The position numbers were made by a program, and so were the translations under genes. The notes beneath the pieces are model-generated. The model saw only the letters and a program-made list of their open reading frames with translations. It was not told the DNA's origin and made no database searches. A stretch of DNA of 62,952 nucleotides, filler included, from Chrysochromulina tobinii (taxonomy: Eukaryota), in NCBI GenBank assembly GCA_001275005.1. It is 4 parts of 4 records of this genome, joined end to end, with 100 filler letters (N's around TTAATTAATTAA, not from the genome) between each part and the next. Parts side by side here need not be neighbours in the genome. Positions count along the whole stretch, not along the records: positions 20,966 to 49,921 come from JWZX01001367.1; 3 more parts are not named here. The stretch is one strand, 5' to 3'. Every line of letters starts with the position of its first letter. The stretch's first letter is position 1. Of the stretch, positions 20,866 to 53,055 are shown in pieces.

Positions 20866-20965
20866 NNNNNNNNNNNNNNNNNNNNNNNNNNNNNNNNNNN
20901 NNNNNNNNNTTAATTAATTAANNNNNNNNNNNNNNNNNNNNNNNNNNNNNNNNNNNNNNNNNNNN
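20866..20965. other. Artificial contig spacer
   Basis: N run with TTAATTAATTAA. Confidence 0.97.
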
Positions 20966-21608
20966 CTTGTGCAAATCCGCTGCTCAGATCAAGCAGCTCG
21001 ACGTGCTCGTTTGGGCAGTCAAGCAAGGTTGCGAATGCGACGTAACGGTCTGCCAAGCGGCAGCTGCCGCTGGCGATCTGACCATATTGGAATGGCTCTG
21101 GACGCATAATGCGCCGATGGACACGCATAGTGCAACGCTCGCACTGTGGGCTGGGCACAGGGACGCCTTCAATTATCTCACGGGCGGCCCAATGCTCAAT
21201 TATCTCCTGTGCGGCCAAAGCGTCACCGTCCCCAAAGTGAAATGGCAGGACCGTTTTATGCTTCGCATCAAGTCGGAGGCTGACATGGAGGGGCGGAGGT
21301 ATCTCGTGCACTTCCTGACGCCCTTAGGTCTAGTCATGCGGAGGTATTGCAACGAGGTTGGCATTGGCCTCGATGCGTTCCAGTTTGAGCTTGACGACGG
21401 CACCGCCAGCCGAAAGGTCGTCGACTATCATCAATTTCCGCATGACCTGCGGATCGATACGCAGCGTGCGGCGTATCCGCAGACCGAGGCAGAGTATGTA
21501 GCAGAGCTCGGAGCGACGATGACAGAAGACTGGCTCGAGCACGTGCCTACCCTTTGGGCCGTTGAAGTTGACGCTCAGCGCGATGATTCGAGCGACGAAG
21601 GCGAGTAG
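20966..21608 (+). CDS. Ankyrin-like repeat + SUMO-like (Rad60-SLD-type) domain protein, 5'-partial
   Basis: Short ankyrin-like units: AAQIKQLDVLVWAVKQGC, CQAAAAAGDLTILEWLWTHNAP. FMLRIKSEADMEGRRYLVHFLTPLGLVMRRYCNEVGIGLDAFQFELDDG follows the SUMO pattern (TPL.KLM..YC...G......F.FDG). Confidence 0.7.
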
Positions 21609-22382: not shown

Positions 22383-22615
22383 GATAGCGGCACGCACATC
22401 ACCCCAGGCCACGCCCCCCCTGCAGTCGGCCTCGTAGGCTCTCTTCGTTTGCGGTCGCCCTAGGCCACGCCCAGCCCCCCTGCCGTCGGCCTCGTAGGCT
22501 CTCTTCGATATCGGCACGCACATCACCCCACATCACCCCAATCCAAGCCCCCCTCGTCGTCGGCCTCGTAGGCTCTCTTCGATAGCGGCACGCACATCAC
22601 CCAAGGCTACGCCCC
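22383..22615. repeat. Imperfect ~65-nt minisatellite (~3.5 copies) overlapping the stop codon of the giant ORF
   Basis: Recurring blocks GATAGCGGCACGCACATCACCCC and GTCGGCCTCGTAGGCTCTCTTCG. Confidence 0.85.
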
Positions 22616-25600
22616 TCGGACAAGAATCGAATCTGTTCGACGGTGGCCGTCGTCTGCGACAGCATCTGCTCCATCATCTTTTCCTTCCTGCGCTGGAGTA
22701 GCTGCTGCTCCGTTTCGAGCTCGATTTTGACCTCGTTTTCCTCCCACCTGCGCAGCGCAACCCACGAGAAGTGGAAGCGCTCTCTAATGGCCTTGTCATC
22801 GTACCAGTCATTGCCTTTGTCGTCGCGCTTGTGGGCGTACCAAAGCACACCGCCACCGTTGCCGCCGCCCGCCTCGCCCTTGGAATGCACCGCCACCGTC
22901 GTTGTATATTTTTCGACCAAGGCGTCCACGTCCTCCGCATCCCCAGTCACCTCCCAGAAGAATGGCTCGCGTAGGAAGAAGCCGAGCCATGCCTTGCGCA
23001 GTGGGCCCCGCCTGATCCACCTTTTCCAGCCCGAGCCAGAGGCACTGATACAACAAGGCACGCGCGCTTTTGCGAGGAGCTCGCCCAGCCCCCGAAACAG
23101 GTCGCCCAGCTGAAAATGGCGGCGCGCCCTGTCGCGGCCCTGATCGAGCACTCTACGTATCTCGTTGAAAAGCGTCTCGTTCTTATTCGGCTCCTTGCGC
23201 CATGCTTTGTTCATGGTGATCTGCTCCCAAAGCGCAGATTGCATGGAATGCGTCACGCGCTCCTTCCACTTTTCCTGGCATTCCTCGATGTGCACATTAT
23301 ACTCCTCGCTGATGATGGCAATGAAGATGTTGGAGAGCAGCGCGACGCCGAAGAGTATGAGGATGATCCAGAACAGCGCTCCGAGGCCGCCCGACGCCTC
23401 GACGAGCACGTTTTGGTCCATATTGCCGAAGATGGCCGCGTAACTCGCGAGGATGGCGCTGCCGAGCTCGTCGAACTGCTGCACTTCGTTGCCAAAGGCG
23501 ACGTGCGTCCCCACCCCAAGGATGCATGCAAAGAACCACGTGACGGCGATGAAGACGAGCACCTTGAACGAGAAGAGCGTCGTAAAGAAGGCATGCAGCA
23601 GAGGCCCGAGCTTAGGGATGTTCTCCGAGCGTCCGAGCAGCCGCAGCCACTGGAAGAAGAGACCGAGGGCCAGCATCGCGCGCTGCACGAGGATCAGTGT
23701 TGAGAGCGGCTGGAAGCAGCCGACGTACGCGGCGGTCTGCAAGTCGAGACCGTGCCAGCTAACCAGCGCGTGCCACCACAGGGTGCGCGCCGCGATCCAC
23801 ACGAGGAGCAGAGAGAGGCCGATCACATCGAGAAAGTTCCACACCGTTGAAAAGTACCCGACCGCTACGCCGGCCTTGCAGGCCTCGCTAAGCTCGAACG
23901 TCGCCTGTGCAAGCGTCCACGCGACAACGGTCGCCTCGCAGCCCACCATGATGCGCTCGCCCAAGTAGAGCGGCCAGTAGAGCGGCAGCAGCACCTTCAT
24001 CGCTCGGGGTATCATGGTGCCCGACGGCGGCATCTCGACGGTCAGATGCACCACGACGGCGGCGCTAAGCGGCCGGTTGTACAGTGTGTAGTCGATGAAC
24101 AGCGCGCGTGTGAGGCCATCCTCCAGCACCCCATCGTCGATTACCGCCTGCAGCGCCGCAGCGCTCTCGTTGGTCCGCGATGGGTGCAAGTCGAGCACGT
24201 AGCCCGCCGTGCCGAGAAACCAGCGGTCGCCCGGCCAGTAGCCAAAGAGATGGCGCGCCGCGTGCCCGCTCGCGTTACAGAACACACCATCCTCGCAGTG
24301 TGTGTACTCTCGCCCACTCGCGGGGCCTGCAAAGCTCGCGAGCGAACTCGGCGCGCTGCCTCCGACAAACCACTTCCGCATGATCTCGAAGACCGCGTAG
24401 AGGTACCAATCATCGTCCGCGCATGCGCCGTCGGCGGCGAGCCAGCCATCGTGGCACGCCGCGGGACCCGAGCGCACGAGGCGCAGCCGCACCGCGCCGA
24501 GCAGCTGGGTGTTGGGATCGACGTCGACGCCCTCTAGCAGGCCGGCGAAGAGCGGACCACCGTTGGGGTCAAGGAAGCCGTTCAGCCGTGCACCCTCGTT
24601 AATGCCCGAGAACTCCTCGCCGCTCACCAGCCCACCCACCTCATTCTGCAGCAGGAACGACATCGACAGGCCAGAGCCCGAGGCGCGGCCCGGCCACGAG
24701 CCCACCCCTGTGGTGTGCAGGGCGACGGCGGTGAGCAGGATCAGGTAGATCAAGAAGCCAAACGCCTGCCTGGCCTCGTGCGCCCAGAGGAAGGAGCGCC
24801 GGTAGCGCATCGTCGAGTCCTGTTCGTTCATCAGGCCGAGAAAGCGCTCGGCGAGGAGCAGCGCCCTGCCGGCGTTCCTCTTCGACTTCTCGGACAGCGA
24901 CTCGATCAGCGAGGACTGCTGGCCTCCCGATCTGCTGCCGTGAACTCGAGCCCCGACGCGTTGCCGCAGCCAGCCCAGCCGCCGCGCGTGGACCTCGACG
25001 GCGGCTGGATCGCTTGCCTCTTTTGAAGAGACAGCGGCGGGGCGGGCGTCCGCTTTCTTTAGGGCGCCCGACGAGAGATTAGGGCGCACGACGCGCTCGT
25101 AGTGGTGGCGGAGCAGCGCAAGCACAAAGGCGCAGGGCACGCGTTTCTCGTCCTTGATGATCGGGACCGGGAATGCGCCATACTCGACGAGCAGCTCGGC
25201 GACGCGAAGGTGGCCGTTACTCACGGCGAGGGCGAGGGGCGTCCAGCCCTGCTCATCGGTCGCATTGAGCAGATCGCTCTCGCTATGCTCGTGCCCGTTG
25301 CCAGTGAGGAAGCCTTCAAGCCGCAGCATACCAACATGGCCAAAGGCCGCGGCGTAGTGCAGCGGCAGGCGGCCGTGATTGTCGGCCTCGTGGAGGAGCC
25401 CCCAGCCGACGGCTTCGCCGTTCGCCGACTTGAGCGCGAGCACCTGTTTAGTCATCTCGACCATCTGGCTGCTCGCCTGCGCATACTCGATGCCGTCGCC
25501 GCGCGGGAGCAGCGTGCGACAAACGTCGTGCAGTAGGGTGCGCCCCTCACGGTCGCGCAACGATGTGAGCATCCCACACGTGCCCGCAATCTTGTGGCAC

Positions 25601-28600
25601 GGCTGATTGGCCGTTGTGCCGAGGGCGAGCTTCCGGTACGCCAGGAGCGCAGTGACCACCGACGGCATGCCGCGCACGGCGGCTACCCGAAGCGCCTCGG
25701 CCGCCCCAGCCCTGTCAGCGACTCCTCCTTTGTCGAAGGCGCCTTCGACGGCCGAAAGGCCGACCGCGTCGGGCCACTCGGGCACCGTGAGCTTTGTGTC
25801 GACTGGCGGGACGTGGAGACCCCCCTTGGCCAGCTCGTCGCACGCGGCGGCATTGAGCGTCATTGAGAATGCCATCGCGCCTTCTCCATCGGTCCCCAGC
25901 TTGCCCGCCGCGTCGATCTCGAACGAGGGCCCGGCATTGAGCCGTCTGGCGAGCACCAACGCTGCTGTCTGGTGCCCCTCGTGTAGTGCTGCGAGGAGCA
26001 CCGTGCGGTTGGGCACTGTCGGCTGCCCATCCGGCTGGGCACTGCCGGTGCCCACGATCGGCGGTGCCACGGCATTCCACGCGAACGTCGAGAGAAGATC
26101 CTTATAGAGCTGCGTATTAGGGACTGGCAGCGCTGCCGACCAGAGGTCCTCACGCAGGGTCACATTAAGCGTCACATGCCGTAGCTTGTTGTCCGCAGAG
26201 TACAGGAAGGCCGCAGGATCCGGACGCGCCTTCTGTGATGGTTGGTCCGGATGGTTGATCGATGGGAGGAAGCGTGAGTCGCCCCACCACGAACTGTCCT
26301 GCGCAGCCTTCACGTCGGCTTCGGGGGCGTGCAAGTCGGCTTCGAGCTTCGCCTGATGAGGCTCGCTCGCCTCCGCGAGTTTCGTTTTCTTCTCCGCTGT
26401 GTCCAGGTTTGCGAGACGGCCCTGCTGGGCTCTTAATGTGACGGACCGCATGCCGAAGCCCGCTCCGCTGCCAACCATACGTTCGAGGGTGGAGAGGTTG
26501 GCTGTCTCCACGTCAGGCAGCAGCACAACCTCGAGAAGCGCGCACTGAGCGTCCTGGTCTGACACGTACGACTTGCGCCCGCGCACGCCACGCGCCTTCT
26601 CGGCGCTGCCGTACGCGTTCCGATCGTCGATGAGCAGCCCAGCGAGCTCGTAGCGGGGCCGCGCGAGCTCGCGCCGCCATGCCTCTTTAGCCCCCCGCTC
26701 GTCTTGCGCCTCGTGCACGGCCTCTTTCGCCGCTTTCTCGGCGGCCTTCTGCTGCACTTTGTCACACCGGCGATCATCATCCTTGGTGTCATCCTTTTGC
26801 ACCGGCATGAGCGATCGCACGCAAAAGGAGAGCGGCCCTCTGAAGAAGCGCTTGCAATGCGTTTGGCCGTCGACGAGAAGAAGCGAGCCAAAGTCGAGTA
26901 AGCACTCGGCCTCCTCCTTGGCGGCGGTCACGGCAGCCTTGAGGCTGAAGAGCAGCTTTGCACGAGTGTGCAGGTCCACTGCGTCCTCGTGCACCACCAG
27001 GCTGGACAGCGACGAGTTCTCGTTCTTCTTCAGCACCTCTGCGAGGGCGCCGAGCCCTTCGGCATCGATGCTGTTGCCGTGGCCGAGGACAAGACGCGTG
27101 AGGGTATCATTGTGCGAAAGCGCCTCCGCGAGCGACGTCACACCCTTCGTACGCAGCCCCGTCTCAGAGAGCGAGAGGACTCGCAAATGGCTGTTGCTCG
27201 AAAGCGCGTCGGCGAGGTGCTCGGCGCCCCCAGGCCCGAGCCCGTTCTTGTCGAGGTAGAGCTCCTCCAGCGGCAGCCGCGCGAGCGCGTTGCCGATCGC
27301 CTGCACACCTGTCGCTGAGATCGAGTTGCGCGCGAGCCGCAGTACGCGAAGCCCCGTGGGCCCGTTGACGGTTGGTGCTGAGATGTTGCTACAGAGCGCG
27401 GCGATGCCCTCGTTACCGACATTGTTATCGGATACGTCGAGCTCTTCGAGCGCATGATTGTTCATTGATCGCAGCGCCACCGCGAGTGTGGCGATGCCCT
27501 CCGCGCCCAAGGTGTTGTTGCTCAGGTCGAGCCGCTCCAGCTGAGTCTGCGACTCGATACGCTGCGCGAGTGTCTCAATGCTCACAGCGCGCAGCAAGGA
27601 ACGCTTGCACACGATGCTCGAGACCACAACGGCAGGTGGTCGCCCTTCCACAACGGCAGGTGGTTGCCCTTCCAGCACATCAAAGATCGCTGCGATCGTG
27701 AGCGGCTCGCTCAGATTGAGCTCGCTCAGATTGAGCAGCGAGCAGCCCGTGATGAAGGGGCGGTACAGCGCTTCGCCGAGTTCTGTGGGCTTGCCCTCGG
27801 CCCATAGCACGCCGGTGTGCTTGGCCTCTTCCATGGCACTTCTTGCAAGTTCCAATCTCCCCCCCTCCTCCCTACTCTGCTTCGTGAGCTCACCCGCAGC
27901 CGCCAGCACATCGCTGCGCGTCTTGTGGTTTCGCCGCGCTTCTCGTGGCGTCGCCGCACTTCTTGGAGCGTCGACGCTCGCCGCAGCACTCAAAACCGGG
28001 TTGAACCCTGAGGGCGCGTGGTTGAACTTGCCGCCATCGCCAAAGTTGACGGTTACACACATGTTCGCGTGCAGAGAGATGGCGGGCATCACGCCATTGA
28101 GCAGGAGGTTGTCGCGGATTCTTGTCGTATGCACCATTTTGCCGTTGTAGTAGTAGTCAAGGTGGCCGGTGGCGTCGGGCTGGATGGTGATCGCGCAGCC
28201 TACGACGCCGCCCGTGGCCCATTTTGCATTGTCCTCGTGCCATGGGATGGGCGGTGAGGGCGACGCATCGGCAGACTTGAAGAGGGCGTACTGGTGCAGC
28301 CTATCGTCCGCCTCACCCTCGTCGCCGCCCTTGGCCGCCTTCCCGCCATCCTTGTCGAGGTTGGCGCCGGCGAAGCCCCACGAGATCCGCTCGTCGCCCA
28401 CGCCAACCATCTGCGAGTAGTCCCCTCTGAAGCGCGAGGTCGCCCACCCGAATGCTGCCGGTCCGCCCTCCTGCACCACCTTCTGACCAGGCTTGTCGTC
28501 GCTCTCGACGTACTCGCGCGCCTCTAAGTCGAAGACGTCGGAGGCGGTACCCGCGCCGCCGAGACGCTCGATCTTCACCTCGTAATACAGCTTGCGAGGC

Positions 28601-43600: not shown

Positions 43601-46600
43601 CTCCCGCAATGCGCGGCGGAGGTGGCGCCTTCGAGCGCCTCCAGCTCCTCACCCAGCTTGGCGAGCTCCTGACGTGCCCTGATCGCGTTGGGCAGCTCCG
43701 CCGGCTTGGTCTTGTACGCGAACGCGTCGATGAGCGCCCCATCGGTCCGGCGCTTGATCTGAAGCCATTCGCCCTCCTCATTGCTCCCCATGGTCGAGCA
43801 GAACATCGCGCCCCAGCCCATCGCCGCCCGGAAGTCCTCATGGCTTGCGACCTTCTCCGGCACTGGGATGAGCGCGCGGCCGTTGATCGTCACCTCGCCC
43901 GTCTGCAGCGAGACCCGCAGCTGGTTCTTTCGCTCTTCGTAGATCCCGCCGATCGCCATGTTCTGGAGGCGCTGCCGCTCGCGCCTCCCGTCGGCCTTGA
44001 GCGACTCGAAGTTCGAGTCGAGGTACGCGCGTGCGCGGTGGTAGTCGTTGTCGCTCGCCTTGAGCGCCATGCGGCAGGCGAACAGCGCGTCGTCCTCCTC
44101 GCCGTCGTCCTCCTCGCCGTCGTCCTGCTCGCCCATGCCCTCGTCAGCGTCGAAGGGCTTACTGTTGGCGCCGTGGTGGACGGCGAGCAGCTGACGCGCG
44201 CTGCCCTCGCTCACCGGCGCCTGAGCGGTGAAGTGGAACCCGCGCTCGCCGATGGAGGCGTCGCTCCGGAAGTGGACGAAGACGTGATCGTCCGGGACGA
44301 CAAGAGCGCTCACGCCGTTCACCCCTGGCCAGCCCGCGCGGCCCGAGTAGCGCCGCTCGCCCCAGTGGCTTGTGCAGCTCGCATCCTTGTAGAAGGTGAC
44401 ATAGTCGTTATCCTGCTCGAGCTCGGTGTCCTCGTGAAAGGTGATTACGATGCGGGATGCGTTTGGGAAGCGCACCTCGCGGAAAAATCTCGTTGACGGC
44501 GGATAGCGCTGCGTCCGCTTGTCGGCCGTCTCGTGCCATCCCGGGCTGTGGACGCTCTGAGAGCACGAGAGCGGTTGCGCTCCGAGCGCCTTCCACTTGT
44601 CAGTCTTCTGCCGCGCGCGGCCGCCGCCCCCCGCCTGCACGAGCTCGCCGCCTGACTGCTCGCGCTGCGCGACGCGCACAATGCGCTCGAGCATGCCGTC
44701 CAGCTTCGCCGCCTCGTTGCCTCGCTGCATGCGGCGCGCGCACGCGAGCACCGTTGAGCGGCTCTCTTGGATCGTCGCGTACACGTTGGGGAGTAACTCG
44801 GCCGGCGCGGCGTCGTGGCAACCCTTGAGCAGGTACATCAGCCAGGCCGTGTCGACGTCCACCTCTTCGATGGACGCGGATCTCATCCACTGCGCCACCA
44901 CCGCGAGCGAGGGCGAAATAGCCATCGCGGACTCGGCATCCGAGGCGGGGGATTTCGAGGCGCCCTGCTTCCTTGCGATGGCGTCGACAATAGCGTCTGG
45001 CCAGCCGCGGTGCAAGTTGCCGCGGATGAGGATGAGGTGCGAGTGGAAAACCACCGGCGCGAGCGTCTTGTTGTGCTGCTCCCCCGACGCGTGCTCGACG
45101 AGCCAGTGCTCAAGGAGCGAGGCGGCGTGGACGAGAAAGTCCTTGCGCAGTGCAGCCAGGTGCTCCGCCGTCTCGTCGAGATGGGCGGCGGCCATTGTCT
45201 TGTGTGTCTTGTGTGCAGCGCGCTTTTGCTCACTTAGGCTGAGGCTCGGATCCTCACCCTCCTCCTCCTCCATGTAGAGTGTCTCGAGCACCGCGAGCGC
45301 CGCTGCCTCCACAGTCGTTGCGAGGCGAACGAGGAACAGCAGCAGCGCCACGTACGACGAGGACGAGGGCACGACGGAGTAAGAGAGGCCCGCTTTGCAC
45401 AGGCGCAGCGTCGCGCGGAGCACCACCGCCGGCCGAAGGCGCAGCTCCCACGCCATCAGGCCGTGGGGAGTGCCGAGGCAGATGTCACGCTCAGTGCGCG
45501 GATCATCCTCGCGGAGGGGCTTGCGCTTCAGTGGCACCGATAAATCGCCGGCGTCGACGCTGGCGTCGCAAAAGGCTTCGGGCTGCCAGAGCAGCTTTGT
45601 CAGGATGAGACACAGGGAGTTGTCGAGCAAGCAGCGCGCCACCTTGTCGACGAAAAAGTCCAGCACGAGGGACAGCGAGACAAAGGGCGCGGCGAGCAGT
45701 GTGAGGAGGCTCTCCGCCTCCTGCTTCGTCAGGCTACGGAGGAAGGTCTTGGGCAGGTCACGCTTCAGTAGGATCTCGTCCTCCGTTAAACTCACATGGC
45801 GCAGCCGATGTGGGATCTCGTTCGGCTTCTTCTGGATCGCCTCCGTCTCCGCGCGAATCTGCGTCTCCGTCTGAAGTTGACACACGAGACTGGACTGCAC
45901 GCCCAGACCATCAAGTCGAAGGGTCCGCAAGTCGGAATCTAAGCCGTGCAAGCAATCGCCGTCGATGCCAGACCCGCTGCCTGTCATGAGGTAGCGTCTA
46001 CTTTTCCCAAACCAGACGGCGACGATGATTTTGTCAGCGCCATCGTTTGTTCCCACGTCATTGCAGAAGATGCCCGGAGAGACGTCGCGCGGCAGGAAAG
46101 TCGTCGTGCTCCTGACTTGTTTCATCTTTGTACATGCGACCTTCCAATCGACTCCCGCCTTAAAGAGGATGAGCATATCGCGCAGCGCATCGAACTCGGG
46201 CACGGGCACGTCGAGAAGGGCCCACTCCTGGGTGAGCTGGCGATACGTCTTAAGTGCGCCCGTGCCAGCTAACGCATTCTTGATCGGCTTCTGCCTGCTC
46301 TCGTGCAGGTACTTGGGTGGTCTAATGTCCTTGTCGTCGAGGTCGTGAACTTGGATGAGATCCATGACGATCTCTTCGATGCCGTCCTCTCGCGCGCCAC
46401 CCCTGCTGCCCACGTTGAAGTTGGTCACCCGCCCGTTTTGGCTACTCTGACCCTTTACGTCTTGGTCCTTCTCGGCGATCACGCTGAATTTCCCCATCAG
46501 CACGAGCAGCTCCTGTCCGCGCTCCTTGGTCTTGGCCGGCGAAAAGTCCGACTCGGCACCAAAGTAGCGCAGCGCAGCGCGGCGCGCGCGCAGTGCGCGC

Positions 46601-49161
46601 GGGCGGCGGACAAAGAGCTGTGAGGCGAGAAACTCGAGCGAGAAGTCGAAGAAGGACGAGGTGCTGAGCGCAAAGAGGCGCCCCGGCTTGTGCACACCGT
46701 TGAGCATCTCTGTGAGCGCAAGCGGCTTGTCGGAGGTCCTGCGGCGGAGGACGGCATCAAACATCGCATACAGCGCTGCGAGTGTGGCGAGGTGCTCGCC
46801 CTGGCACGCTGCACCACCGCGGCCGTGCTGCTTGCTCTCCGTGCGCTCGTGCTGTTGCACTTGGGAGGTGAACAATGCGGCGAGGTAGTGCTCCGTGAGG
46901 GCCTGCAGCTGCGCCAGTAGCAGCTGCTGCTCGTACCGCGTGAAATGGTTGCGCTCGCTCGGCGCCGTTGCCTCGCCCAAACCGGCAGCAGTGGCACCGC
47001 TTGTCGGGTTGTACAGGTCGTTCTTGGAGCCGCCGCCGATGCGCCACGGCAGCGGCAGCGGCAGGAGGTGGCAGACGGAGTGCTCAATCAGAGCTTCCAC
47101 CATGTGCGTCGCGGCGAGCTCCTCGAGGCCGTGGCTGCCCTGCCGCAGCTCGTCGCAGATGACGACAATCAGCTCGATGGCCTTTGCGAGCTTGGCGATG
47201 CTCCGCAGCCGCCCCGCCGGACGATAATAGACGCCGTTCACGTTGAGGTAGTGGAACGAGCGCGCTTCGAACGACTCGGACGGCGCGTGCTCGACGCGGA
47301 TTTCCTCGAGCTCCTCGGCACTGAAGTTTGTCTGGCTCGAGAGCCGACTCGCGAGGGCCCCCCAATGGGGCCTCTCCACTGGCAGCTCTTGCTCGGGGTC
47401 GGGCATCGTGCCGTCTGGGAAGCGCTCCCAGCGCCGCGCACTCGGGATGGGGCTCTCTGCAAGGAAGCCACGGTGTAGGTCGAGGAGGACGGTCGTCGAG
47501 GTACGCGCCGCCTCCTTCATCTGCTCGAACGGCAGTACGTCGACAAGGAGCTCGAAGCCGAGGAACCGATGGAACTCGTCGGTAGGCATCAGCGGCGGCA
47601 CATCGAGCCGCTCGATGGCGCTCGCGCGCCCGTCGACGATGCGCCCAGCGCGCAGCTGGCCCGCCTTGCTCCGGATATTCGCGATTCGCTCGTGCACCTC
47701 CTTGTGCACCTCGCTCGCCATCCCACCACCTGCCGCCGCAGACGACGATGACGATGCTTGGATAGGGAAGGTATCGAGCGTCTTTGCAAGCGCGCGCTGC
47801 GTGATGAGCTCGATCGTCAGCACGTCACTCTCGACGACGAGCAACTTGTCGGCGAGCAACTTGTCCACATCCGCCTCGACCGCGACGAGCGTCTGCTGCT
47901 GGAGTCGCACGACAAGCGTCGCCGAGAGGCGCGCGAGGACTTGCCGCGCCTCCGGGCTGAGGTTGACAGGGCGGTCGAGCAAGCAGTTGAGCGCAGCGAC
48001 GACAGTCGCCTGGTTCACGGAGGCGTCTTCAGCAAAGCGCACCATCTCGGCAGTGCACCATTCATGAATGGGGGTGTGGTCGAAGGCTGCGCGCAGCGTG
48101 GTGCCGGGTGGGAGCAGATGCGGCACGAAGCATTCGTAGAAATCTGCGAGCATGGGATTTCGAAGGTCGACACTCAGCAGCGGTGTGCATCGGGGGTAGC
48201 GGGTCGAGGGGCGCGGGTCGAGGGGCGACACAGGTCGGATCGAAAACTCCGCAGATTCCGCACATAGGTAGGCTTTGGAATTGACGGTGAGATCGTACGA
48301 CACGGGTTTGGTGCGAAGCTGAACGAGCATCCAGCAGACAGCCGCGTCCTCGAGCTTCTCGCTCGCAATGTGTTCCAAGTGCACACACGGGCGCAGCCGC
48401 ACCGAAGGCGGCACGGCGTCTGTAGACGGATGGTATTGGAAGGCGCCGTCGCCGGTATTGATCAACGTCATCGAGAAGTGCGAGTCGCTCTCGCGCTGGA
48501 TGACGAGCAGCACGAGGGTGAAGGAGCGCCCCTTTGCAGGATCCGGCCAGTGGGCGAAGCCGCCCGGGAAGAGCATCAGCTCGCCGACGGGCAGATCGGT
48601 AAGCTGAGCGCGGAGCTCCACCGCCTTTGCGTGGATCTGCGGCGCGCGGTGCTCATCCTTATCGATAGTGAGAAGGGGCGCGAGCTTTTGCTCCCACTTG
48701 GCCGCGCCGCGGAAGGCGCTCGCGAGCACGCTCGCCGCGCCGCCCACCTCCTGGAGCAACGATGCCCTTAGCACCTCCTCCTTGGCCTTGCTCTCGGTGG
48801 CTTTTTCCAGCGCGTCCGCAAACTCATTCATCATCGTCGAGAGCGGCGACACGCTCTCGTCAAAGTCGTCGCCGCTGCCCATGTTGCCGTCCACTTCGGC
48901 GTCTACGAGCTCTCGCTCCTTCTCGCTCAGCGGCCCGACGAAATTCTCTAGTTCGGCCAGCAGCTCCTTGCGCCTCCAGATGGGCTGAGTGGTGATGAGC
49001 CCCACCGTCACGTCCACCTCGGCTCCGGTGTCCCCGAGTGCCCCAGCTGGGCGGCGTGGGGTATGGGAATCGTCAGATGCGAAGTAGGAGCGCAAGAAAC
49101 TGTCCCACGCCGCCGCAGCAAGCATGCTGCCGTCATCATCCGCGGCGTCATGCTGGCTCAT
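22597..49161 (-). CDS. Giant (~8,850 aa) multidomain protein: CUB-like, UBA-like, FN3, DUF3638/DUF3645 SF2-helicase-like ATPase, degenerate ATP:guanido phosphotransferase, 3x SPRY, RI-type LRR, ankyrin repeats, polycystin (PKD2/TRPP-like) channel
   Basis: Stop-free 26.6-kb frame; first ATG at 49161; probable in-frame 120-nt intron 48263-48144 (GTGCGG...CTCGCAG). Motifs: FLMGSGKTT (~37400), LIDEVD (~36870), AVPFVGKDAPS...EFSNPDV (~36030), GFSGTPS (~35550), QACWRMRQLG (~35035), WVNAEEHLR (~32420). SPRY x3 at ~29920-28010, LRR ~27740-26990, ANK ~25700-25170. Channel at ~24770-23290 (LLGAVRLRLVR, TRALFIDYTLYN, YFSTVWNFLDV, LLSNIFIAIISEEY). Confidence 0.88.
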   Translation of the reverse strand: MSQHDAADDDGSMLAAAAWDSFLRSYFASDDSHTPRRPAGALGDTGAEVDVTVGLITTQPIWRRKELLAELENFVGPLSEKERELVDAEVDGNMGSGDDFDESVSPLSTMMNEFADALEKATESKAKEEVLRASLLQEVGGAASVLASAFRGAAKWEQKLAPLLTIDKDEHRAPQIHAKAVELRAQLTDLPVGELMLFPGGFAHWPDPAKGRSFTLVLLVIQRESDSHFSMTLINTGDGAFQYHPSTDAVPPSVRLRPCVHLEHIASEKLEDAAVCWMLVQLRTKPVSYDLTVNSKAYLCAESAEFSIRPVSPLDPRPSTRYPRCTPLLSVDLRNPMLADFYECFVPHLLPPGTTLRAAFDHTPIHEWCTAEMVRFAEDASVNQATVVAALNCLLDRPVNLSPEARQVLARLSATLVVRLQQQTLVAVEADVDKLLADKLLVVESDVLTIELITQRALAKTLDTFPIQASSSSSAAAGGGMASEVHKEVHERIANIRSKAGQLRAGRIVDGRASAIERLDVPPLMPTDEFHRFLGFELLVDVLPFEQMKEAARTSTTVLLDLHRGFLAESPIPSARRWERFPDGTMPDPEQELPVERPHWGALASRLSSQTNFSAEELEEIRVEHAPSESFEARSFHYLNVNGVYYRPAGRLRSIAKLAKAIELIVVICDELRQGSHGLEELAATHMVEALIEHSVCHLLPLPLPWRIGGGSKNDLYNPTSGATAAGLGEATAPSERNHFTRYEQQLLLAQLQALTEHYLAALFTSQVQQHERTESKQHGRGGAACQGEHLATLAALYAMFDAVLRRRTSDKPLALTEMLNGVHKPGRLFALSTSSFFDFSLEFLASQLFVRRPRALRARRAALRYFGAESDFSPAKTKERGQELLVLMGKFSVIAEKDQDVKGQSSQNGRVTNFNVGSRGGAREDGIEEIVMDLIQVHDLDDKDIRPPKYLHESRQKPIKNALAGTGALKTYRQLTQEWALLDVPVPEFDALRDMLILFKAGVDWKVACTKMKQVRSTTTFLPRDVSPGIFCNDVGTNDGADKIIVAVWFGKSRRYLMTGSGSGIDGDCLHGLDSDLRTLRLDGLGVQSSLVCQLQTETQIRAETEAIQKKPNEIPHRLRHVSLTEDEILLKRDLPKTFLRSLTKQEAESLLTLLAAPFVSLSLVLDFFVDKVARCLLDNSLCLILTKLLWQPEAFCDASVDAGDLSVPLKRKPLREDDPRTERDICLGTPHGLMAWELRLRPAVVLRATLRLCKAGLSYSVVPSSSSYVALLLFLVRLATTVEAAALAVLETLYMEEEEGEDPSLSLSEQKRAAHKTHKTMAAAHLDETAEHLAALRKDFLVHAASLLEHWLVEHASGEQHNKTLAPVVFHSHLILIRGNLHRGWPDAIVDAIARKQGASKSPASDAESAMAISPSLAVVAQWMRSASIEEVDVDTAWLMYLLKGCHDAAPAELLPNVYATIQESRSTVLACARRMQRGNEAAKLDGMLERIVRVAQREQSGGELVQAGGGGRARQKTDKWKALGAQPLSCSQSVHSPGWHETADKRTQRYPPSTRFFREVRFPNASRIVITFHEDTELEQDNDYVTFYKDASCTSHWGERRYSGRAGWPGVNGVSALVVPDDHVFVHFRSDASIGERGFHFTAQAPVSEGSARQLLAVHHGANSKPFDADEGMGEQDDGEEDDGEEDDALFACRMALKASDNDYHRARAYLDSNFESLKADGRRERQRLQNMAIGGIYEERKNQLRVSLQTGEVTINGRALIPVPEKVASHEDFRAAMGWGAMFCSTMGSNEEGEWLQIKRRTDGALIDAFAYKTKPAELPNAIRARQELAKLGEELEALEGATSAAHCGSEPELRGVLSRTIDALRDLHIDKKDAAALRTRCLETLAHLGVSRKPNGLCFLVDVANCQALAASLPEQVLPLPAERQLFAHLLHHGALDALAKQRERRREVKGSKAASSSTSGPWILGGLDERALTPGLPPPLLAQEKEGLRFCGRLFQPVSVLQPERTAANEPTDGGNVSAEADAPSREPWMLLFWRKLRYTRAQPGDLQDLLEKLLLFYCPDAQMPLLMYMPAFGDHADGNPGMLYEVGPPSAQPESARPDFIVRALVPCGQQAFSRLSVYSSNKEACLFGHTCYLAQAGSNGEPILPGLRHEGGFLFGILYKPTGELLDPDVDPRTQQRSSLRHVGLRCTRPDVQRTADMKALCSANLSHLSEDELWLHLQYVPPRLVDGLLPGVLTRSFEFWLAGPRTLWGYRMTAALQSRDDEEIHASKSMKSVYRKEWYDGFALHIVLDSSGNAATVRRIRRFDPVRRDFQRDNEPPVLTLLNVLRCPPHSTAQRLLRVLVRLVPQTEMLFWTDAAEPTDGEGCRLHSIQIPRHELTFRPTMVWEPGASDPSLRIMCDELTSMWLVEDCEQPALQKHIQRLRHGVWLTNSEHEYFLLLPLLKLEQRLIPFCKLSTDYHFAYTYAIGRQSHVGFRTPVYSINAHPHAGDPVSYFLYPLHVSGSHLRITSVAAALHLAHLRLMTREYNAVPPLIKAAFKDVPYDDQIEGGLVVEILNFKESSHIAVDGIACIMPLILACLENGFWRTVSIAALQGNSIRTIYMRYVIGIKDVSPECLVEPEHELLLCEWLGMLGRQELIKAELRLLKSDKTSESLPIPPARTAGGEFQRRNRELEPRANGGVFWREWISRCPKILANARAHFLEGPPGPPMKLRIARRETHCIMLAWDQPAAETPSGLWWEAIGTSRPSAAEDLELHNDELCRELPSHNEFTTSEWQKFRVGSLKAGQFIKGCDGQFYKPVLVKIAPVEGYIIEHRVVGTESGDAHVWINTLSELEMVRKGRKGGEKGVEKEKRGEKPVVVWQTTTSFLLGGGDMAEVLQREVSYTFRVIAVSRKGTSDPLEMQDPAKTKTEGIGPVAPNQKDAKEIADRDVTKELPSRSRAATVEGYNQTECWPEALRFTPTTAEPTSSRQQMVNLLKMLQNDGLWQRHVQMGFPYLYGLVTGRCRLRLSETFDKTSEEPEPATAPSEAEQYPGMEHSYEDESADIIPSVVVHPLDLDESRTSSSDPTAAVPAENLSVLKMVLCKILMRSLVDQGDATVENHEGLVALLSVLVEVMQFDAGRKLMHTLPLFPVARNVAALDSTAGLRVDAGQAFTFFQILFRETPRMVALLREEEAGVGKEGGKEGAGEEEGGKEKGGEEEGGKEKGGEVQQTGMLADLRQFSQRFFGDFGTAERAAAAAPTVETVADDDNQEAPGVKQDERAPEGGKEEGGEEEAALTEEQQQVLSRFERATSQKDVYVKLSRHDIRPVNIQVSESANASALLELPRPADARLTLQEVKEPLHAFADEHTEEQARVVEAESQLETPFVSELKNIWSTRFHEDYPKKKDPGDNEYDSRRAPGLPDQRLVESLVVDLEYEQKQKAEDPRPRVQLKGLPQIELEQLSDHVQVIERQAKQSTAPSKPVSDPNAASQALARFHERLVRLSVQLSQTIRKETAAMARGVARVEEIGCRADSGSTTQTLARVEEIGSRADSNSTTQTLLLLSQRAVRPSFERLLASMLSSTQEADLRMVDPELCKRMPELNAEIISCQLRGCRLRLLGACAGGCDDLEATTSKMCMRLLAASFAATCPASRAPTAELLQHSLRKHGSDVLKALGGLIQLTEAIKKLAVELQEVSSFSEEEAGHAAYLLVHGCGFDTGAISVKHEPIENTSPTTAAAFAPTVIPSSVPTNLTTVDADAQATALTSTSGKTSSNPATTATTQTASITISPASWALLAGMHVMSAEELMEAVRCTKRGVCWNGVPLDIGSAISNALPPTKAEIDVLAQKAGTLAASLRTKRWFVKQDGATDDVVRKYGSSESVSFDPRFLAFEFAAKFMLRKEQVEMIKGMAEQWKNGQSCCQQFLMGSGKTTVVAPLLALLLGGGGGSESAPSDGSATAGVSSGARLVVQIVPDALLNMSISVMRNAFGTTIVKPIVSFAFERAAAGADMIKLLRGIQRRLSIACDQGGVVCTTPGAIKSIFLSFLDRMHLEERAPRLFFLPKSALKLEKQQRASVDKIALAMRTRSDEADVIQRILCIFQGATALIDEVDMVLHPLRSELNFPIGKKVELQLMRIPEAESEGAKGGKEEDALDEDNGQLRWLLPIHLFDGVYAALENDPMAELAWRKEEALHHHLEDPANEAPLILKQLQECIEAGSVESSIARLPHLVLLQKTFYEKQMRKPLGRWCCLWYLAQACVQKEVKAAKIAHSGALDLGDGVVTYMTTGEINPGDFDDFMRQIVDKQALALLNLCKLYLVSLLPHVLGKRIRVDFGLLQEQDAIRIQQLEFDEKEQRTGKRENPIREELLEIRRKSRELLAVPFVGKDAPSRAAEFSNPDVVIGLTVAAYRIEGLRERYDMAALVKQERLDFDRSTGEESKRPQWVRFDRWIKLGQERWKRTHGEEEVVPGAAGELALNHIRVGDEKQVAQLSKLLHREPSLICFYLDQYCFRLTQRNVEGGGGYAVEKLSACGMDLGSNLFKRVVGFSGTPSSLVPKDMQEREGGIRVQKGSDANMINVLTSPKYVTLQRLKDIAHPWSVEDLLLWVALASPPFHAFIDTGALVTGFTNEEVARYCLTHGLKWAKAAVFLDPQDRQMVVLKGGGPATPLANVSISLSERFTFYDQVHTTGMDIKQAADARAAVTIGKGMVMRDHTQACWRMRQLGEGQTLTVVLPPEIEKLIDSMSDAAEPPSSAGEIVRPVLASTGIAALTARGAKDKKEEAAAAGESTARPALGLFKLSDKGRDPDAPMATPRKDAPETSRRKKAGMPDEPASTKAAAGPAAATRPDGTFVQDLDSQPATVETKPPAPIELKIDLNAIMRWLICNSLDAEMLMAKQLLIQQAQNVLRKHALSLLLRESHDGGDGGGGGGAAAVGGAGRAAADAPLVPSSLFSLSHSDAPGVLIEELPTLTVKLLALHAELKMEEEKESRTADDGQYAHIKNTRDAIHVLVRNLYAPPAPLRDYGHATPEQIIKATINVLSWSGVVADDVSAIFDPTDGSKAGGMDKNELSNLHQCLKNIHDESTYWYWYIFTRFHFPQKTMQSLFTGSVFTEPSKVVANCRQLSQNREEKGGTQPKNEDKQHGTGEKKEETNEDDTMWKALARVSLSPLEWQLLSVQDKPEGGVELSCEKLAAALAEGRTKFSQAEWDAFGVSSLLTENYLHASGKYFGPRPLAKDLLATLKRKSFEPELGGFTIKQCLKPALKEGGPHADMCVAGGISSYKHLRELFLPVVRRLHPYFDKTVKSCSDMWSTEVEMFLASLAVDEAEAKAMEAKAMRARVGELQAQLTNGTITSEGRKELERQEVQLTQLNDEAVVAAQMAAQADETRNFTTHVASVSFWCTRNLSAYPFLPACGPKALQDVSNTFKKAFTEISDTFKKAFTKTQQDLDKLCKKEEAAKASEVLAKRDEGEGSRWKRPSRVAPAAAAPAAAAIEPSGRGEFADPKRCAELFQGVYRELTSIDANEQLNLKAAGALFEQPAIGSLARVVTDDDEQEQAQAHTQIEVEWQKHRALFRNTDHDRSVLAWVNAEEHLRLMVEFKGCDVSETFCAFATVYEMLRWRLKQNGEEYAHDAMFGWVGYDPHQIGTCFEGALRIRLDYNEDKATAETVGDEQADREEETRESILKEFDLKLSSPLTSNAAGSDENSRYEVKETWYMLRTHLRIGKRDERIGKRDAKGVSAMARDDASIISELMLIQDLVHGGAKRLLALDQRLISTAKERNEELQRKACEAKQLREEREAVYHVGLDLLGWPTPKLNGSGNKIPPQEIYTTRLLESGEVIRGCVRLHREDVTESLLIVPKPKFVASDAENVTKTIALYANLALHFDRMQRLQVEGGVHTRINLDSAEAKFVSSRVLLRLQDPSAVFDSILSSTGATDTRTISEIGDYLITQRMMDALKELRDFESSKGKGSSKSAEERGLNTEMVQEQEQQQQVEKVEQQTEFGDFDDYIIREQLRWCPIFVLRASKRETLLREKLLPFETLKMKGETAHEGVLWPEKNAQEMSLLFSPNWAAREYRGSRTRRVRNIEVLVRVIHSPTSSSLVLVTLEEAEGIMRALDALSERAPRTSLDALSERAPRTSNARAAATKQGSDPIIEMYSLQGVLLSRHGTSGGSTEEQEEQKVPKEQKDEAVTVDLGNRLISEQYLLDNLDKDDESQDPERLLMHFGSMREKTSAKERFLLTATFVRLRFWNSEFIFASSELLALLASLKSLGFTASDVAKVFWELHKGRRRDTSQADILNTDLHALLGNKATEWDVLCELENANKKEENLGSKQSTLEERIKEVRKDDATASASRKPVVREARMRGERSAVERADSSVLTPATAEATPAGLSAHLIAVTPETAGELSMVAGTQLELYASNLLWTRSGSFVTVCPRGCLLRPSSGRWYMELNVHRTSASGGTIFGVVTERFNSASKAVGADEFSWGVGEKGLRHANQNTPISSGDLWQDGDVVGCLIDCKQAELRFYRNGLELQGGVASFLDVRGQIGLCPALTIDCGFLGFFNLGESPFRYPPNMAGVKAVYAFVLEQRTLQHLRMSNAPGKMRALFNRRAVKIEPSGNEWSLKRVPNCWRDPTVSLDGVLLTHGKWFFEVDLGTNPFGYMQIGCHDTLFKPASGDQGLGDDKHSWALEVGGFRRRTGLLRHAGKRVKWDDKFKGLSTGLIGCAIDVDRGTIRYVIKDKNGELYVNVAYEGVAFAGGLIPSLTLYCYQPIVRLYDCELLQAAKLPPELAEYRPIGNLLAITKGASVATPMLETSIDRMTKRLLPTSGHNTLFFDDTYKVHCTAFLGSLTAPGLTAYPPSQVPRKLYYEVKIERLGGAGTASDVFDLEAREYVESDDKPGQKVVQEGGPAAFGWATSRFRGDYSQMVGVGDERISWGFAGANLDKDGGKAAKGGDEGEADDRLHQYALFKSADASPSPPIPWHEDNAKWATGGVVGCAITIQPDATGHLDYYYNGKMVHTTRIRDNLLLNGVMPAISLHANMCVTVNFGDGGKFNHAPSGFNPVLSAAASVDAPRSAATPREARRNHKTRSDVLAAAGELTKQSREEGGRLELARSAMEEAKHTGVLWAEGKPTELGEALYRPFITGCSLLNLSELNLSEPLTIAAIFDVLEGQPPAVVEGRPPAVVVSSIVCKRSLLRAVSIETLAQRIESQTQLERLDLSNNTLGAEGIATLAVALRSMNNHALEELDVSDNNVGNEGIAALCSNISAPTVNGPTGLRVLRLARNSISATGVQAIGNALARLPLEELYLDKNGLGPGGAEHLADALSSNSHLRVLSLSETGLRTKGVTSLAEALSHNDTLTRLVLGHGNSIDAEGLGALAEVLKKNENSSLSSLVVHEDAVDLHTRAKLLFSLKAAVTAAKEEAECLLDFGSLLLVDGQTHCKRFFRGPLSFCVRSLMPVQKDDTKDDDRRCDKVQQKAAEKAAKEAVHEAQDERGAKEAWRRELARPRYELAGLLIDDRNAYGSAEKARGVRGRKSYVSDQDAQCALLEVVLLPDVETANLSTLERMVGSGAGFGMRSVTLRAQQGRLANLDTAEKKTKLAEASEPHQAKLEADLHAPEADVKAAQDSSWWGDSRFLPSINHPDQPSQKARPDPAAFLYSADNKLRHVTLNVTLREDLWSAALPVPNTQLYKDLLSTFAWNAVAPPIVGTGSAQPDGQPTVPNRTVLLAALHEGHQTAALVLARRLNAGPSFEIDAAGKLGTDGEGAMAFSMTLNAAACDELAKGGLHVPPVDTKLTVPEWPDAVGLSAVEGAFDKGGVADRAGAAEALRVAAVRGMPSVVTALLAYRKLALGTTANQPCHKIAGTCGMLTSLRDREGRTLLHDVCRTLLPRGDGIEYAQASSQMVEMTKQVLALKSANGEAVGWGLLHEADNHGRLPLHYAAAFGHVGMLRLEGFLTGNGHEHSESDLLNATDEQGWTPLALAVSNGHLRVAELLVEYGAFPVPIIKDEKRVPCAFVLALLRHHYERVVRPNLSSGALKKADARPAAVSSKEASDPAAVEVHARRLGWLRQRVGARVHGSRSGGQQSSLIESLSEKSKRNAGRALLLAERFLGLMNEQDSTMRYRRSFLWAHEARQAFGFLIYLILLTAVALHTTGVGSWPGRASGSGLSMSFLLQNEVGGLVSGEEFSGINEGARLNGFLDPNGGPLFAGLLEGVDVDPNTQLLGAVRLRLVRSGPAACHDGWLAADGACADDDWYLYAVFEIMRKWFVGGSAPSSLASFAGPASGREYTHCEDGVFCNASGHAARHLFGYWPGDRWFLGTAGYVLDLHPSRTNESAAALQAVIDDGVLEDGLTRALFIDYTLYNRPLSAAVVVHLTVEMPPSGTMIPRAMKVLLPLYWPLYLGERIMVGCEATVVAWTLAQATFELSEACKAGVAVGYFSTVWNFLDVIGLSLLLVWIAARTLWWHALVSWHGLDLQTAAYVGCFQPLSTLILVQRAMLALGLFFQWLRLLGRSENIPKLGPLLHAFFTTLFSFKVLVFIAVTWFFACILGVGTHVAFGNEVQQFDELGSAILASYAAIFGNMDQNVLVEASGGLGALFWIILILFGVALLSNIFIAIISEEYNVHIEECQEKWKERVTHSMQSALWEQITMNKAWRKEPNKNETLFNEIRRVLDQGRDRARRHFQLGDLFRGLGELLAKARVPCCISASGSGWKRWIRRGPLRKAWLGFFLREPFFWEVTGDAEDVDALVEKYTTTVAVHSKGEAGGGNGGGVLWYAHKRDDKGNDWYDDKAIRERFHFSWVALRRWEENEVKIELETEQQLLQRRKEKMMEQMLSQTTATVEQIRFLSEGRSLG

Positions 49162-49921: not shown

Positions 49922-50021
49922 NNNNNNNNNNNNNNNNNNNNNNNNNNNNNNNNNNNNNNNNNNNNTTAATTAATTAANNNNNNNNNNNNNNNNNNNNNNN
50001 NNNNNNNNNNNNNNNNNNNNN
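49922..50021. other. Artificial contig spacer
   Basis: N run with TTAATTAATTAA. Confidence 0.97.
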
Positions 50022-52309: not shown

Positions 52310-52774
52310 GAGAAGCGAGCAGACGAGCCCCGTGAGAGCTAGTGCGAGCACGAACTCCGTTTATGCGTGGGGTCCATCGTCGGCGACCGAAATTTTCTGA
52401 GAAAGTTCCGAATGAGACTGCGGTCAGTTTACGTTGATCCGTTGTTGCGGGATGCTCGGGTTAAAGGCGCCGAAGCGCGTAGGGGGCGCGCCCGGCGGGG
52501 CGGTGCGCGAACGCCTCAGACGCGTGCCACGATTTGTGCGTTGTGCGGACTGGGGCGCGTGCTCCTTGGGTCCTTGTGGTACTGTCAGTATCAACCTAGT
52601 GCACACGACCAAGCTCAGCGCAGTTTCTCAGAAGGCGATGTGAAAACTAAAACGGGTACCAATCGCGCTGATTGGTTTTCCACACAGCTCATCGAGAGCG
52701 AGGTCGCGATCAGCACGCGGAGGCCTTCGCCATCGTCGCAATCGTCGTGTCGACGTCCTCTATTCACTACGGTC

Positions 52775-53020: not shown

Positions 53021-53055
<35 letters not shown>

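What the first reader, a model, noticed from the sequence alone, without database searches (positions are those of the whole stretch)
22597..49161. ~8,850-aa 'chanzyme': DUF3638/DUF3645 helicase-like ATPase fused through SPRY-LRR-ankyrin to a polycystin/TRPP channel
Seen: one stop-free 26.6-kb frame. It carries intact Walker A (GSGKTT), Walker B (DEVD), GFSGT and QxxxRxR motifs, then 3 SPRY domains, RI-type LRRs, ankyrin repeats and a six-helix channel with the large extracellular polycystin loop after S1. Established: DUF3638/DUF3645 giants are SF2-like proteins of unknown function in fungi and protists; PKD2/TRPP proteins are cation channels. Inference: I know of no description of this fusion. 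An NTPase plus sensor repeats plus an ion pore resembles an immune or stress sensor wired directly to cation flux.
Basis: partly seen in the sequence, partly recalled or inferred. Interest (0 to 1): 0.88.

Follow-up and report, generated by a model that had tools for sequence, protein, structure and literature searches.

The report
Giant ATP-motor-fused polycystin ion channel
This stretch of algal DNA belongs to an apparently undescribed family of 7,400-8,900-residue protist proteins that join a helicase-type ATP motor to a polycystin-type ion channel, so that the motor would likely control the pore; in this strain the gene is probably broken by a 3.3-kb duplication that the assembly collapsed.

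Summary
The 8,854-codon frame (49161-22597, minus strand) and all listed motifs and domains are in the window. The fusion is real as a family: 4 of 35 other giant homologues, including a chrysophyte gene model and a single 24-kb Logan contig, carry motor-SPRY-LRR-ankyrin-channel in the same order. The motor models as an SF2 ATPase with intact motifs; SecA is nearest, tied with DEAD-box helicases. The channel models as PKD2 (TM 0.67-0.78). Main correction: a 3,262-bp segment (32513-29250) has twice the read depth in 5 of 5 DNA runs. Another assembly holds it twice in tandem and out of frame, and 15 ENA contigs carry the two split proteins. So the unbroken frame is probably a collapsed repeat, and this strain's gene is probably disrupted. 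No RNA links the halves. Ten paper searches found no description of the fusion. The scan earlier called other DUF3638 giants SecA-like, never channel-fused. Best mechanism: a cytosolic motor-sensor gates a cation pore (inferred, about 0.4).

The parts
22597..49161 (-). Whole reading frame as assembled, 8,854 aa, no introns needed; probably a collapsed version of a gene that carries 29250-32513 twice
47977..48618 (-). N-terminal His-Asn-Gln-Cys protease-like domain (aa ~182-395); the His and Cys motifs seen in relatives are absent here
   Evidence: local profile E 7e-15 and alignment
44230..44529 (-). CUB domain (aa ~1545-1644)
   Evidence: Pfam CUB E 3e-4, at cut-off; same place in 12 of the 35 other giants
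40402..41028 (-). Possible fibronectin type III domain with insert (aa ~2712-2920), weak
   Evidence: Pfam fn3 E 0.016, below cut-off; fn3 precomputed for P0003
34987..37548 (-). SF2 ATPase motor (aa ~3872-4725): Q-motif, Walker A 3917, DEVD 4098, ~430-aa insert holding DUF3645, GFSGT 4535, motif V, motif VI 4705
35572..36816 (-). Helical insert between motifs II and III, at the site of SecA's preprotein-binding domain and DinG's arch domain
   Evidence: spacing; substrate-engaged SecA chains align about 470 residues against about 330 for other SF2 chains
31882..33486 (-). Degenerate phosphagen (arginine/creatine) kinase-like domain (aa ~5226-5760); catalytic Cys and NEED-type motif altered
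   Evidence: Pfam E 3e-12; PDB arginine kinase E 3e-11; shared only with P0002 and P0003
29250..32513 (-). Segment (aa 5550-6638) present twice in tandem in another assembly; 3,262-bp period, frameshifting
30307..31278 (-). Post-motor domain conserved in DUF3638 giants (aa ~5962-6285)
   Evidence: 35 of 36 giants, local profile
28012..29952 (-). Three SPRY domains (aa ~6404-6570, 6626-6760, 6857-7050); best solved relative is ryanodine-receptor SPRY2
26962..27579 (-). Ribonuclease-inhibitor-type leucine-rich repeats (aa ~7195-7400)
25162..25704 (-). Ankyrin repeats (aa ~7820-8000)
23200..24897 (-). TRPP/PKD2-type channel (aa 8088-8654): S1, polycystin (TOP) domain, S2-S4, S5, two pore helices, S6
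   Evidence: PKD2L1 E 6e-24; model pLDDT 75.6; PKD2 E 6e-22, TM 0.67/0.78
23416..23430 (-). Selectivity filter F-G-N-M-D (aa 8578-8582); Asn where PKD2L1 and most relatives have Asp

Best explanation
The gene belongs to a protist family in which a DUF3638/DUF3645 SF2 ATP motor is joined through three SPRY domains, leucine-rich and ankyrin repeats to a polycystin-type six-helix channel; the intact protein would likely sit in a membrane as a cation channel whose opening is likely controlled by the motor when it engages a target, probably a protein, and in this strain the gene is probably broken by an out-of-frame 3,262-bp tandem duplication. Steps. (1) Shown: the domain order and its recurrence in relatives (my odds 0.95). 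(2) Predicted from the fold: the C-terminal part is a TRPP channel. By analogy with PKD2 it forms a tetramer and passes Na+, K+ and some Ca2+. (3) Inferred: with no signal peptide and no clear membrane helix before S1, all ~8,100 N-terminal residues face the cytosol. (4) Inferred: the motor hydrolyses ATP, since all SF2 motifs are intact in all five full proteins. It more likely grips a polypeptide like SecA (about 0.5) than RNA or DNA. (5) Inferred and untested: SPRY and LRR select the target, and the LRR-ankyrin arm next to S1 passes the motor's state to the gate, giving a cation or Ca2+ signal. The dead protease-like and kinase-like domains act as binding modules. (6) Inferred from depth and a second assembly (about 0.85): this strain makes at most a soluble 6,641-aa motor protein. 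The channel half has lost its frame unless splicing removes one copy.
For: Same order motor-post-motor-SPRY-LRR-ANK-channel in P0002, P0003, P0015 and P0032, 4 of 35 non-self giants. P0032 is an Epipyxis (chrysophyte) gene model and P0015 lies on one 24-kb Logan contig. Four further fragments begin in the post-motor domain and run to the channel (P0044, P0224, P0061, P0132). Motor and channel trees agree on two sister pairs: this protein with Prymnesium polylepis pieces (74% in both), and P0002 with P0003. All five full proteins and all six SPRY-LRR-ANK fragments fall in one 18-row channel clade, SH-aLRT 96. In an 88% relative the domains differ less than the linkers: TOP 4 of 240 and SPRY1 1 of 150, against linkers 21 of 80 and 29 of 207. 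Motor: SecA ranks first in both VIA searches (Z 15.7 and 15.9, rmsd 4.1, about 340 aligned). Substrate-engaged SecA aligns 468-470 residues. DEVD and GxxGT match SecA alone among six E. coli SF2 proteins. Channel. Duplication.
Against: No experiment, localisation or expression data for any member. SecA is tied within 1 Z with eIF4A, Dbp5, DbpA and RIG-I. Foldseek gave no hit at E<=0.001. Profile comparison with E. coli SecA is not significant (E 0.09; DinG 0.006), and DinG also has an insert after motif II. 31 of 35 giant relatives have no channel, so the motor has a function without one. In the 51-row motor tree P0032 falls apart from the other four (long branch), so a single origin is not shown. 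The filter has Asn at the first acidic position in 2 of 5 full proteins. EF-hands near the SPRY block in P0015 and P0132 suggest control may run from Ca2+ to the motor instead. P0002 and P0003 are N-terminally incomplete.
Confidence: 0.4

Rival explanations
1. The motor is a nucleic-acid sensor (RIG-I- or DEAD-box-like) that detects viral RNA or DNA and opens the fused pore to trigger Ca2+ influx or cell death: an innate immune receptor and executioner in one chain.
For: DEAD-box helicases and RIG-I tie with SecA by Z (15.0-15.8). SPRY and RI-type LRRs whose solved relatives include NOD2-type and NLRP proteins. DUF3638 genes appear among lineage-specific or polymorphic genes (passages of PMC6237848 and bioRxiv 10.64898/2026.10.14.759018). 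Probable loss in a cultured strain fits a dispensable defence gene.
Against: Motif III is G-F-S/T-G-T, not S/T-A-T. The large insert superposes further on SecA than on RNA helicases. Family members carry protease-like, ubiquitin-related and thioredoxin domains, which point to protein substrates.
Confidence: 0.2
2. Control runs the other way, or not at all: the channel anchors the giant at a membrane (cilium, haptonema or vacuole) and supplies local Ca2+ that switches the motor on, as in a signalling scaffold.
For: EF-hands in P0015, P0132, P0051 and many channel-less giants. About 3,400 residues lie between motor and S1. Polycystins are ciliary channels (abstract listings).
Against: No EF-hand found by Pfam in this protein or listed for P0002, P0003 or P0032. 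Ankyrin repeats directly before S1 are gating elements in TRPA, TRPN and TRPV (recalled).
Confidence: 0.22
3. The chain is a polyprotein that is cut, or transcribed in two parts, so that motor and channel work separately.
For: Most giants lack the channel. Many database entries are C-terminal pieces only. This strain seems to tolerate a split. TRPM7 releases its kinase (recalled).
Against: The pieces mostly begin inside the post-motor or SPRY region, as expected from introns or contig ends. The protease-like head lacks its His and Cys in all 3 channel-bearing proteins whose N-terminus is present, so self-cleavage is unlikely.
Confidence: 0.1
4. For this strain only: the window's intact frame is the true gene product, because the extra copy is a separate 3.3-kb circle, or one copy is spliced out exactly at an AG|GT site inside the repeat.
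For: Short-read graphs cannot tell a tandem copy from a circle. Nine AGGT sites lie in the segment. A duplication can create a working intron (abstract of PMC3265369).
Against: Depth ratio is steady near 2.0 in 5 of 5 runs. 15 ENA contigs carry both split products. None of the nine sites has a pyrimidine tract before the AG.
Confidence: 0.15

Closest known systems
DUF3638/DUF3645 giant proteins (Pfam PF12340 + PF12359), e.g. Bigelowiella P0005, Thecamonas P0011, Chromera P0010
   Same: Protease-like head, CUB, SF2 motor with insert, post-motor domain; three SPRY domains in a subgroup
   Different: Adds LRR, ankyrin and a membrane channel at the C-terminus; catalytic His and Cys of the head lost; a dead phosphagen-kinase domain in one subclade
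TRPP channels PKD2 and PKD2L1
   Same: S1-S6 with the polycystin (TOP) domain after S1, two pore helices, S6 pattern and G-D/N-x-D filter
   Different: ~8,100-residue N-terminus with ATPase and ankyrin repeats; 20-23% identity; Asn at the first filter position in this lineage
SecA / SecA2 protein-translocation ATPases
   Same: Top-ranked fold, DEVD, GxxGT motif III, insert between motifs II and III
   Different: No significant sequence-profile match; insert 348-897 aa against 182; the fused pore is an ion channel, not a SecY protein pore; SecA's C-terminal scaffold and two-helix finger not tested
TRP chanzymes TRPM2 (NUDT9-H) and TRPM6/7 (alpha-kinase) (recalled, not tested)
   Same: Enzyme and TRP channel in one chain
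   Different: Those are TRPM channels with small C-terminal enzymes; here a TRPP channel has an N-terminal ATP motor
Ryanodine receptors
   Same: Giant cytosolic N-terminus with three SPRY domains before a six-helix cation pore; best solved SPRY relative is RyR1 SPRY2, E 5e-8
   Different: Pore is polycystin-type; no other RyR domain found by Pfam; RyR has no SF2 motor (recalled)

Membership tests
DUF3638/DUF3645 giants | PF12340 and PF12359 above cut-off, in order | tested here: met
   57.7 and 50.8 bits against cut-offs 31 and 25
DUF3638/DUF3645 giants | Intact His-Asn-Gln-Cys head as in several relatives | tested here: not met
   Domain present (E 7e-15) but the GGH and QxSGxC motifs are missing; also missing in many channel-less members
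SF2 helicase-type ATPases | Two RecA-like domains with motifs Q, I, Ia, Ib, II, III, IV, V, VI | tested here: met
   Motif alignment of 66 sequences; model pLDDT 76; Z 12-16 to SF2 proteins
SF2 helicase-type ATPases | ATP hydrolysis and substrate translocation | not testable with these tools
   Needs biochemistry
SecA | Sequence-level homology to SecA | tested here: not met
   hhalign E 0.09, hmmsearch E 0.16 against E. coli SecA; no SecA hit in PDB sequence searches or Pfam
SecA | Preprotein-binding domain inserted after motif II | tested here: inconclusive
   Insert at that site; 468-470 residues align to substrate-engaged SecA at rmsd 5.2-5.7; insert not folded alone; DinG has an insert there too
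SecA | Helical scaffold and two-helix finger; SecYEG partner | not tested
TRPP (polycystin-2-type) channels | Six membrane helices with a TOP domain between S1 and S2 | tested here: met
   (TM 0.67/0.78 to PKD2; PKD1 chains score lower, 0.46-0.49)
TRPP (polycystin-2-type) channels | Acidic G-D-x-D type filter | tested here: inconclusive
   G-N-M-D here; G-D in 3 of 5 full proteins and in Prymnesium polylepis. PKD2L1 D523N still conducts with 19-fold lower Ca2+ selectivity (PMC4922860 passages); that this is the equivalent position is my inference from the alignment
TRPP (polycystin-2-type) channels | Placement among named TRP subfamilies in a tree | tested here: inconclusive
   The tree had only unnamed PKD2-like outgroup rows that I chose by motif
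TRPP (polycystin-2-type) channels | Tetramer that conducts cations | not testable with these tools
   No complex job was run; needs electrophysiology
PKD1-type (11-helix) polycystins | Extracellular N-terminus, GAIN/GPS and PLAT domains, 11 helices | tested here: not met
   No such Pfam hits; no hydrophobic N-terminus; only four isolated weak hydrophobic windows before S1
Phosphagen kinases | Catalytic Cys motif and NEED-type motif intact | tested here: not met
   Aligned to arginine kinase, the Cys is Asp and NEEDH is NAEEH; also altered in P0002 and P0003

The most novel reading that the evidence does not exclude
A family of motor-gated ion channels in algae and other protists: 7,400-8,900-residue TRPP subunits, longer than ryanodine receptors, in which a SecA-like ATPase grips a target protein and mechanically opens its own cation pore. 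It would be a one-chain sensor-and-alarm system and would give the first functional handle on the DUF3638 giants.
Probability: 0.3. Interest if true: 0.92.

Novelty: new variant of a known kind. Interest (0 to 1): 0.76.

Why it matters
Known enzyme-fused TRP channels carry small kinases or hydrolases (recalled). An SF2 ATP motor fused to a TRP pore did not turn up in ten paper searches. The fusion is kept in haptophyte-like and chrysophyte lineages. It makes two open questions testable. First, what the widespread DUF3638/DUF3645 giants do: a fused channel gives an electrical or Ca2+ read-out of motor activity. Second, how protist TRPP channels are gated. The strain in the window may be a natural loss-of-function mutant to compare with intact relatives. 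The case also shows that a perfect giant frame in a short-read assembly can be a collapsed duplication.

Tried and rejected
Sequence searches of the motor against solved structures found nothing useful (0 hits; one chance P450 hit, E 0.18). Foldseek on the motor gave no hit at E<=0.001. Profile tests against six E. coli SF2 proteins were not significant, best DinG E 0.006. Pfam found nothing in aa 1-1500, and 8 of the 17 smaller pieces scanned had no hit, so most of aa 400-3800 stays unannotated. The Atlas look-up for the motor returned DUF3638 clusters, with a recognition value below its threshold; the look-up for the N-terminal domain did not complete. Rfam found no RNA family on the contig. 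RNA: three freshwater metatranscriptomes hold scattered 150-445-nt contigs over motor, SPRY, LRR and channel. None listed bridges 29250 or links domains, their word shares were small (0.08-0.13), and DNA carry-over was not excluded, so I do not count this as expression evidence. No RNA run of this strain was offered. The 14 DNA holders may be the window's own source and are not independent of it. No whole genome was held. The metagenome scan returned only the same-strain locus L001, so the DNA of P0002, P0003, P0015 and P0032 was not seen. A 22-base pattern search in the window was a failed guess. Considered and rejected: chance ORF (codon pattern, domains, homologues); a chimeric join between unrelated genes (colinear relatives across every junction); PKD1-type receptor; active protease; active phosphagen kinase; a dispersed second copy of the segment (the L001 junction joins its end to its own start). 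Trees: 51 of 66 motor rows (11 short rows and 4 near-duplicates dropped). A hand-picked 30-row tree put the channel group on one side with support 98, but the SPRY-only P0025 lies inside it and 8 rows, P0025 among them, were outside the test sets. The channel tree used 27 of 33 rows (6 near-copies dropped). All were quick LG+G4 trees without the mixture model. Papers: search listings only; passages for PMC4922860, PMC12615304, PMC6237848 and bioRxiv 10.64898/2026.10.14.759018; abstract for PMC3265369. No supplements were read. Genome-paper supplements or subscription reviews of protist TRP channels could list this architecture.

Full report
1. The observation. The minus strand of 49161..22597 translates to 8,854 residues without a stop. 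It holds no N, and GC3 stays at 0.71-0.88 throughout. Pfam confirms DUF3638, DUF3645, three SPRY domains, LRR_6, ankyrin, Polycystin_dom and PKD_channel. The window is several contigs joined by N spacers, and this gene lies almost alone on the piece 20966-49921, so the other genes in the window are not neighbours. The nearest named relatives are Prymnesium polylepis pieces at 74% identity for both motor and channel. I infer a haptophyte.

2. The frame is probably an assembly collapse. Two database proteins match aa 1-6637 and then stop after four other residues (P0001, P0038). In 5 of 5 DNA runs laid, contigs break at 29250/29279; the four laid also break at 32484/32513. The segment between has 1.82-1.99 times the depth of its flanks. 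L001, another assembly of the same DNA, is 100% identical but carries 32513-29250 twice, head to tail, with a 3,262-bp period and a 2-bp overlap. That shifts the frame: one product ends in the second SPRY domain, and a second frame of 3,306 codons runs from aa 5550 to the end. Each split product is on 15 ENA contigs with the same longest length. The unbroken protein is not on record. A ratio near 2 argues against one intact and one duplicated allele, which would give 1.5. A separate circle or exact splicing at one of nine AG|GT sites cannot be excluded; none of the sites has a pyrimidine tract. I put the break at about 0.85. Collapsing the repeat gives back the ancestral gene, so the window's protein is still a fair picture of the intact form.

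3. The fusion is real as a family. Of 35 non-self giants found with the motor, four (P0002, P0003, P0015, P0032) continue through SPRY, LRR, ankyrin and channel in the same order. P0032 is an Epipyxis gene model, P0015 sits on one 24-kb Logan contig, P0003 on three contigs, and P0002 has four near-identical members. P0002 matches in one alignment across the duplication point (aa 6328-7450). A search with the ankyrin-channel part gave more C-terminal pieces; P0044, P0224, P0061 and P0132 start in the post-motor domain typical of the giants. In the channel tree all five full proteins and six SPRY-LRR-ANK fragments lie in one clade of 18 rows (SH-aLRT 96). In the motor trees the haptophyte-like members group firmly. 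P0032 joins the channel group in the 30-row tree but not in the 51-row tree, so one origin is possible, not shown. An 88% relative differs little in domains and much in linkers, which fits purifying selection.

4. The motor. All SF2 motifs are conserved in the alignment of 66 family sequences wherever the rows reach them, and are intact in the five channel-bearing proteins. The model (pLDDT 76, pTM 0.62) matches SF2 proteins. SecA is first against 48,161 representatives (Z 15.7, rmsd 4.1, 340 aligned; next FANCM 14.4). In the second look it is tied with eIF4A, Dbp5 and DbpA (15.9 against 15.8-15.4), but the substrate-engaged SecA chains align 468-470 residues where others align about 330. Motif II (DEVD) and motif III (GFSGT against GMTGT) match SecA alone among six E. 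coli SF2 proteins, and the 348-897-residue insert lies where SecA has 182 and DinG 211 residues. Against this, there is no significant sequence link to SecA and no Foldseek hit at E<=0.001. It works like an SF2 motor and leans towards SecA; it is not a SecA family member. Earlier scan notes reached the same SecA-like reading on other genomes; that is not independent evidence.

5. The channel. The best solved relatives are PKD2L1 and PKD2 (E 6e-24). The model has six long helices, the TOP domain and two pore helices (pLDDT 75.6) and matches PKD2 at E 6e-22, TM 0.67/0.78, ahead of PKD1. The filter is G-N-M-D. Three of five full proteins and P. polylepis have G-D, and the 88% relative has S-D. 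In PKD2L1 the D523N change keeps current but lowers Ca2+ selectivity 19-fold (passages of PMC4922860), so this lineage would be less Ca2+-selective if the positions correspond.

6. A His-Asn-Gln-Cys protease-like head is intact in several channel-less relatives but lacks His and Cys in all three channel-bearing proteins with an N-terminus, and in many others. I took this lead from earlier notes and tested it. There is a CUB domain and a weak FN3. A degenerate phosphagen-kinase domain lies behind the motor, shared only with P0002 and P0003. The SPRY block is closest to ryanodine-receptor SPRY2 among solved structures.

7. Mechanism. No signal peptide and no clear membrane helix before S1 put everything upstream in the cytosol. 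My preferred reading (0.4) is that the motor engages a target, more likely a protein, chosen by SPRY and LRR, and that the LRR-ankyrin arm carries this to the gate, giving cation entry. Rivals: nucleic-acid-triggered immune pore (0.2); channel as anchor and Ca2+ source for the motor (0.22); separate products (0.1). None of the functional steps is shown.

8. Novelty. DUF3638 occurs in 6 papers and DUF3645 in 2 in the library; the three passages read say nothing about function or channels. Six searches for the fusion or for protist TRPP architecture returned nothing relevant by title or abstract start (four of them returned no paper at all). The scan's own notes hold no channel-fused member. The library lacks most subscription papers. 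The parts are known; the combination appears undescribed.

9. Verdict. A real and strange protein family, shown by relatives more than by this assembly. The copy in this strain is probably broken. Interest 0.76.

Noticed in passing
window 16039-16138, 20866-20965, 49922-50021: Artificial joints (44 N, 12-base stop spacer, 44 N): the window is four contigs, so gene neighbourhood across them means nothing.
   Followed up: yes
window 8632-16086 (-): 2,484-codon frame with several IPT/TIG domains, cut by the contig joint.
   Followed up: no
window 16869-18830 (+): BspA-type leucine-rich repeat protein with 13 copies of a 69-bp unit.
   Followed up: no
window 52343-55282 (+): Magnesium chelatase ChlD-like frame (AAA plus vWA) with a CAG run; points to a photosynthetic host.
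   Followed up: no
window 19439-20839 (-): Coiled-coil protein with a C-terminal ubiquitin-like domain, cut by the joint.
   Followed up: no
window 20967-21608 (+): End of a small convergent gene with weak ankyrin repeats (E 0.01), the only neighbour on the giant's contig.
   Followed up: partly
window 51428-52360 (-): Peptide methionine sulfoxide reductase (E 1e-48).
   Followed up: no
aa 1991 of the frame (window ~43190); proteins P0037, P0039: A 97%-identical variant leaves the alignment at this point in two records, which suggests an intron or insertion that this strain lacks.
   Followed up: no
window ~22390-22596: A short repeated unit of about 75 bp directly after the stop codon.
   Followed up: no
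proteins P0136, P0138, P0095, P0137: Other polycystin-type channels with unusual N-termini: WD40 plus ankyrin, LRR plus ankyrin, long ankyrin arrays.
   Followed up: no
proteins P0033, P0034: DUF3638 giants that end in ankyrin plus an ADP-ribosyltransferase domain (PF01129) instead of a channel, so the family swaps C-terminal output modules.
   Followed up: no
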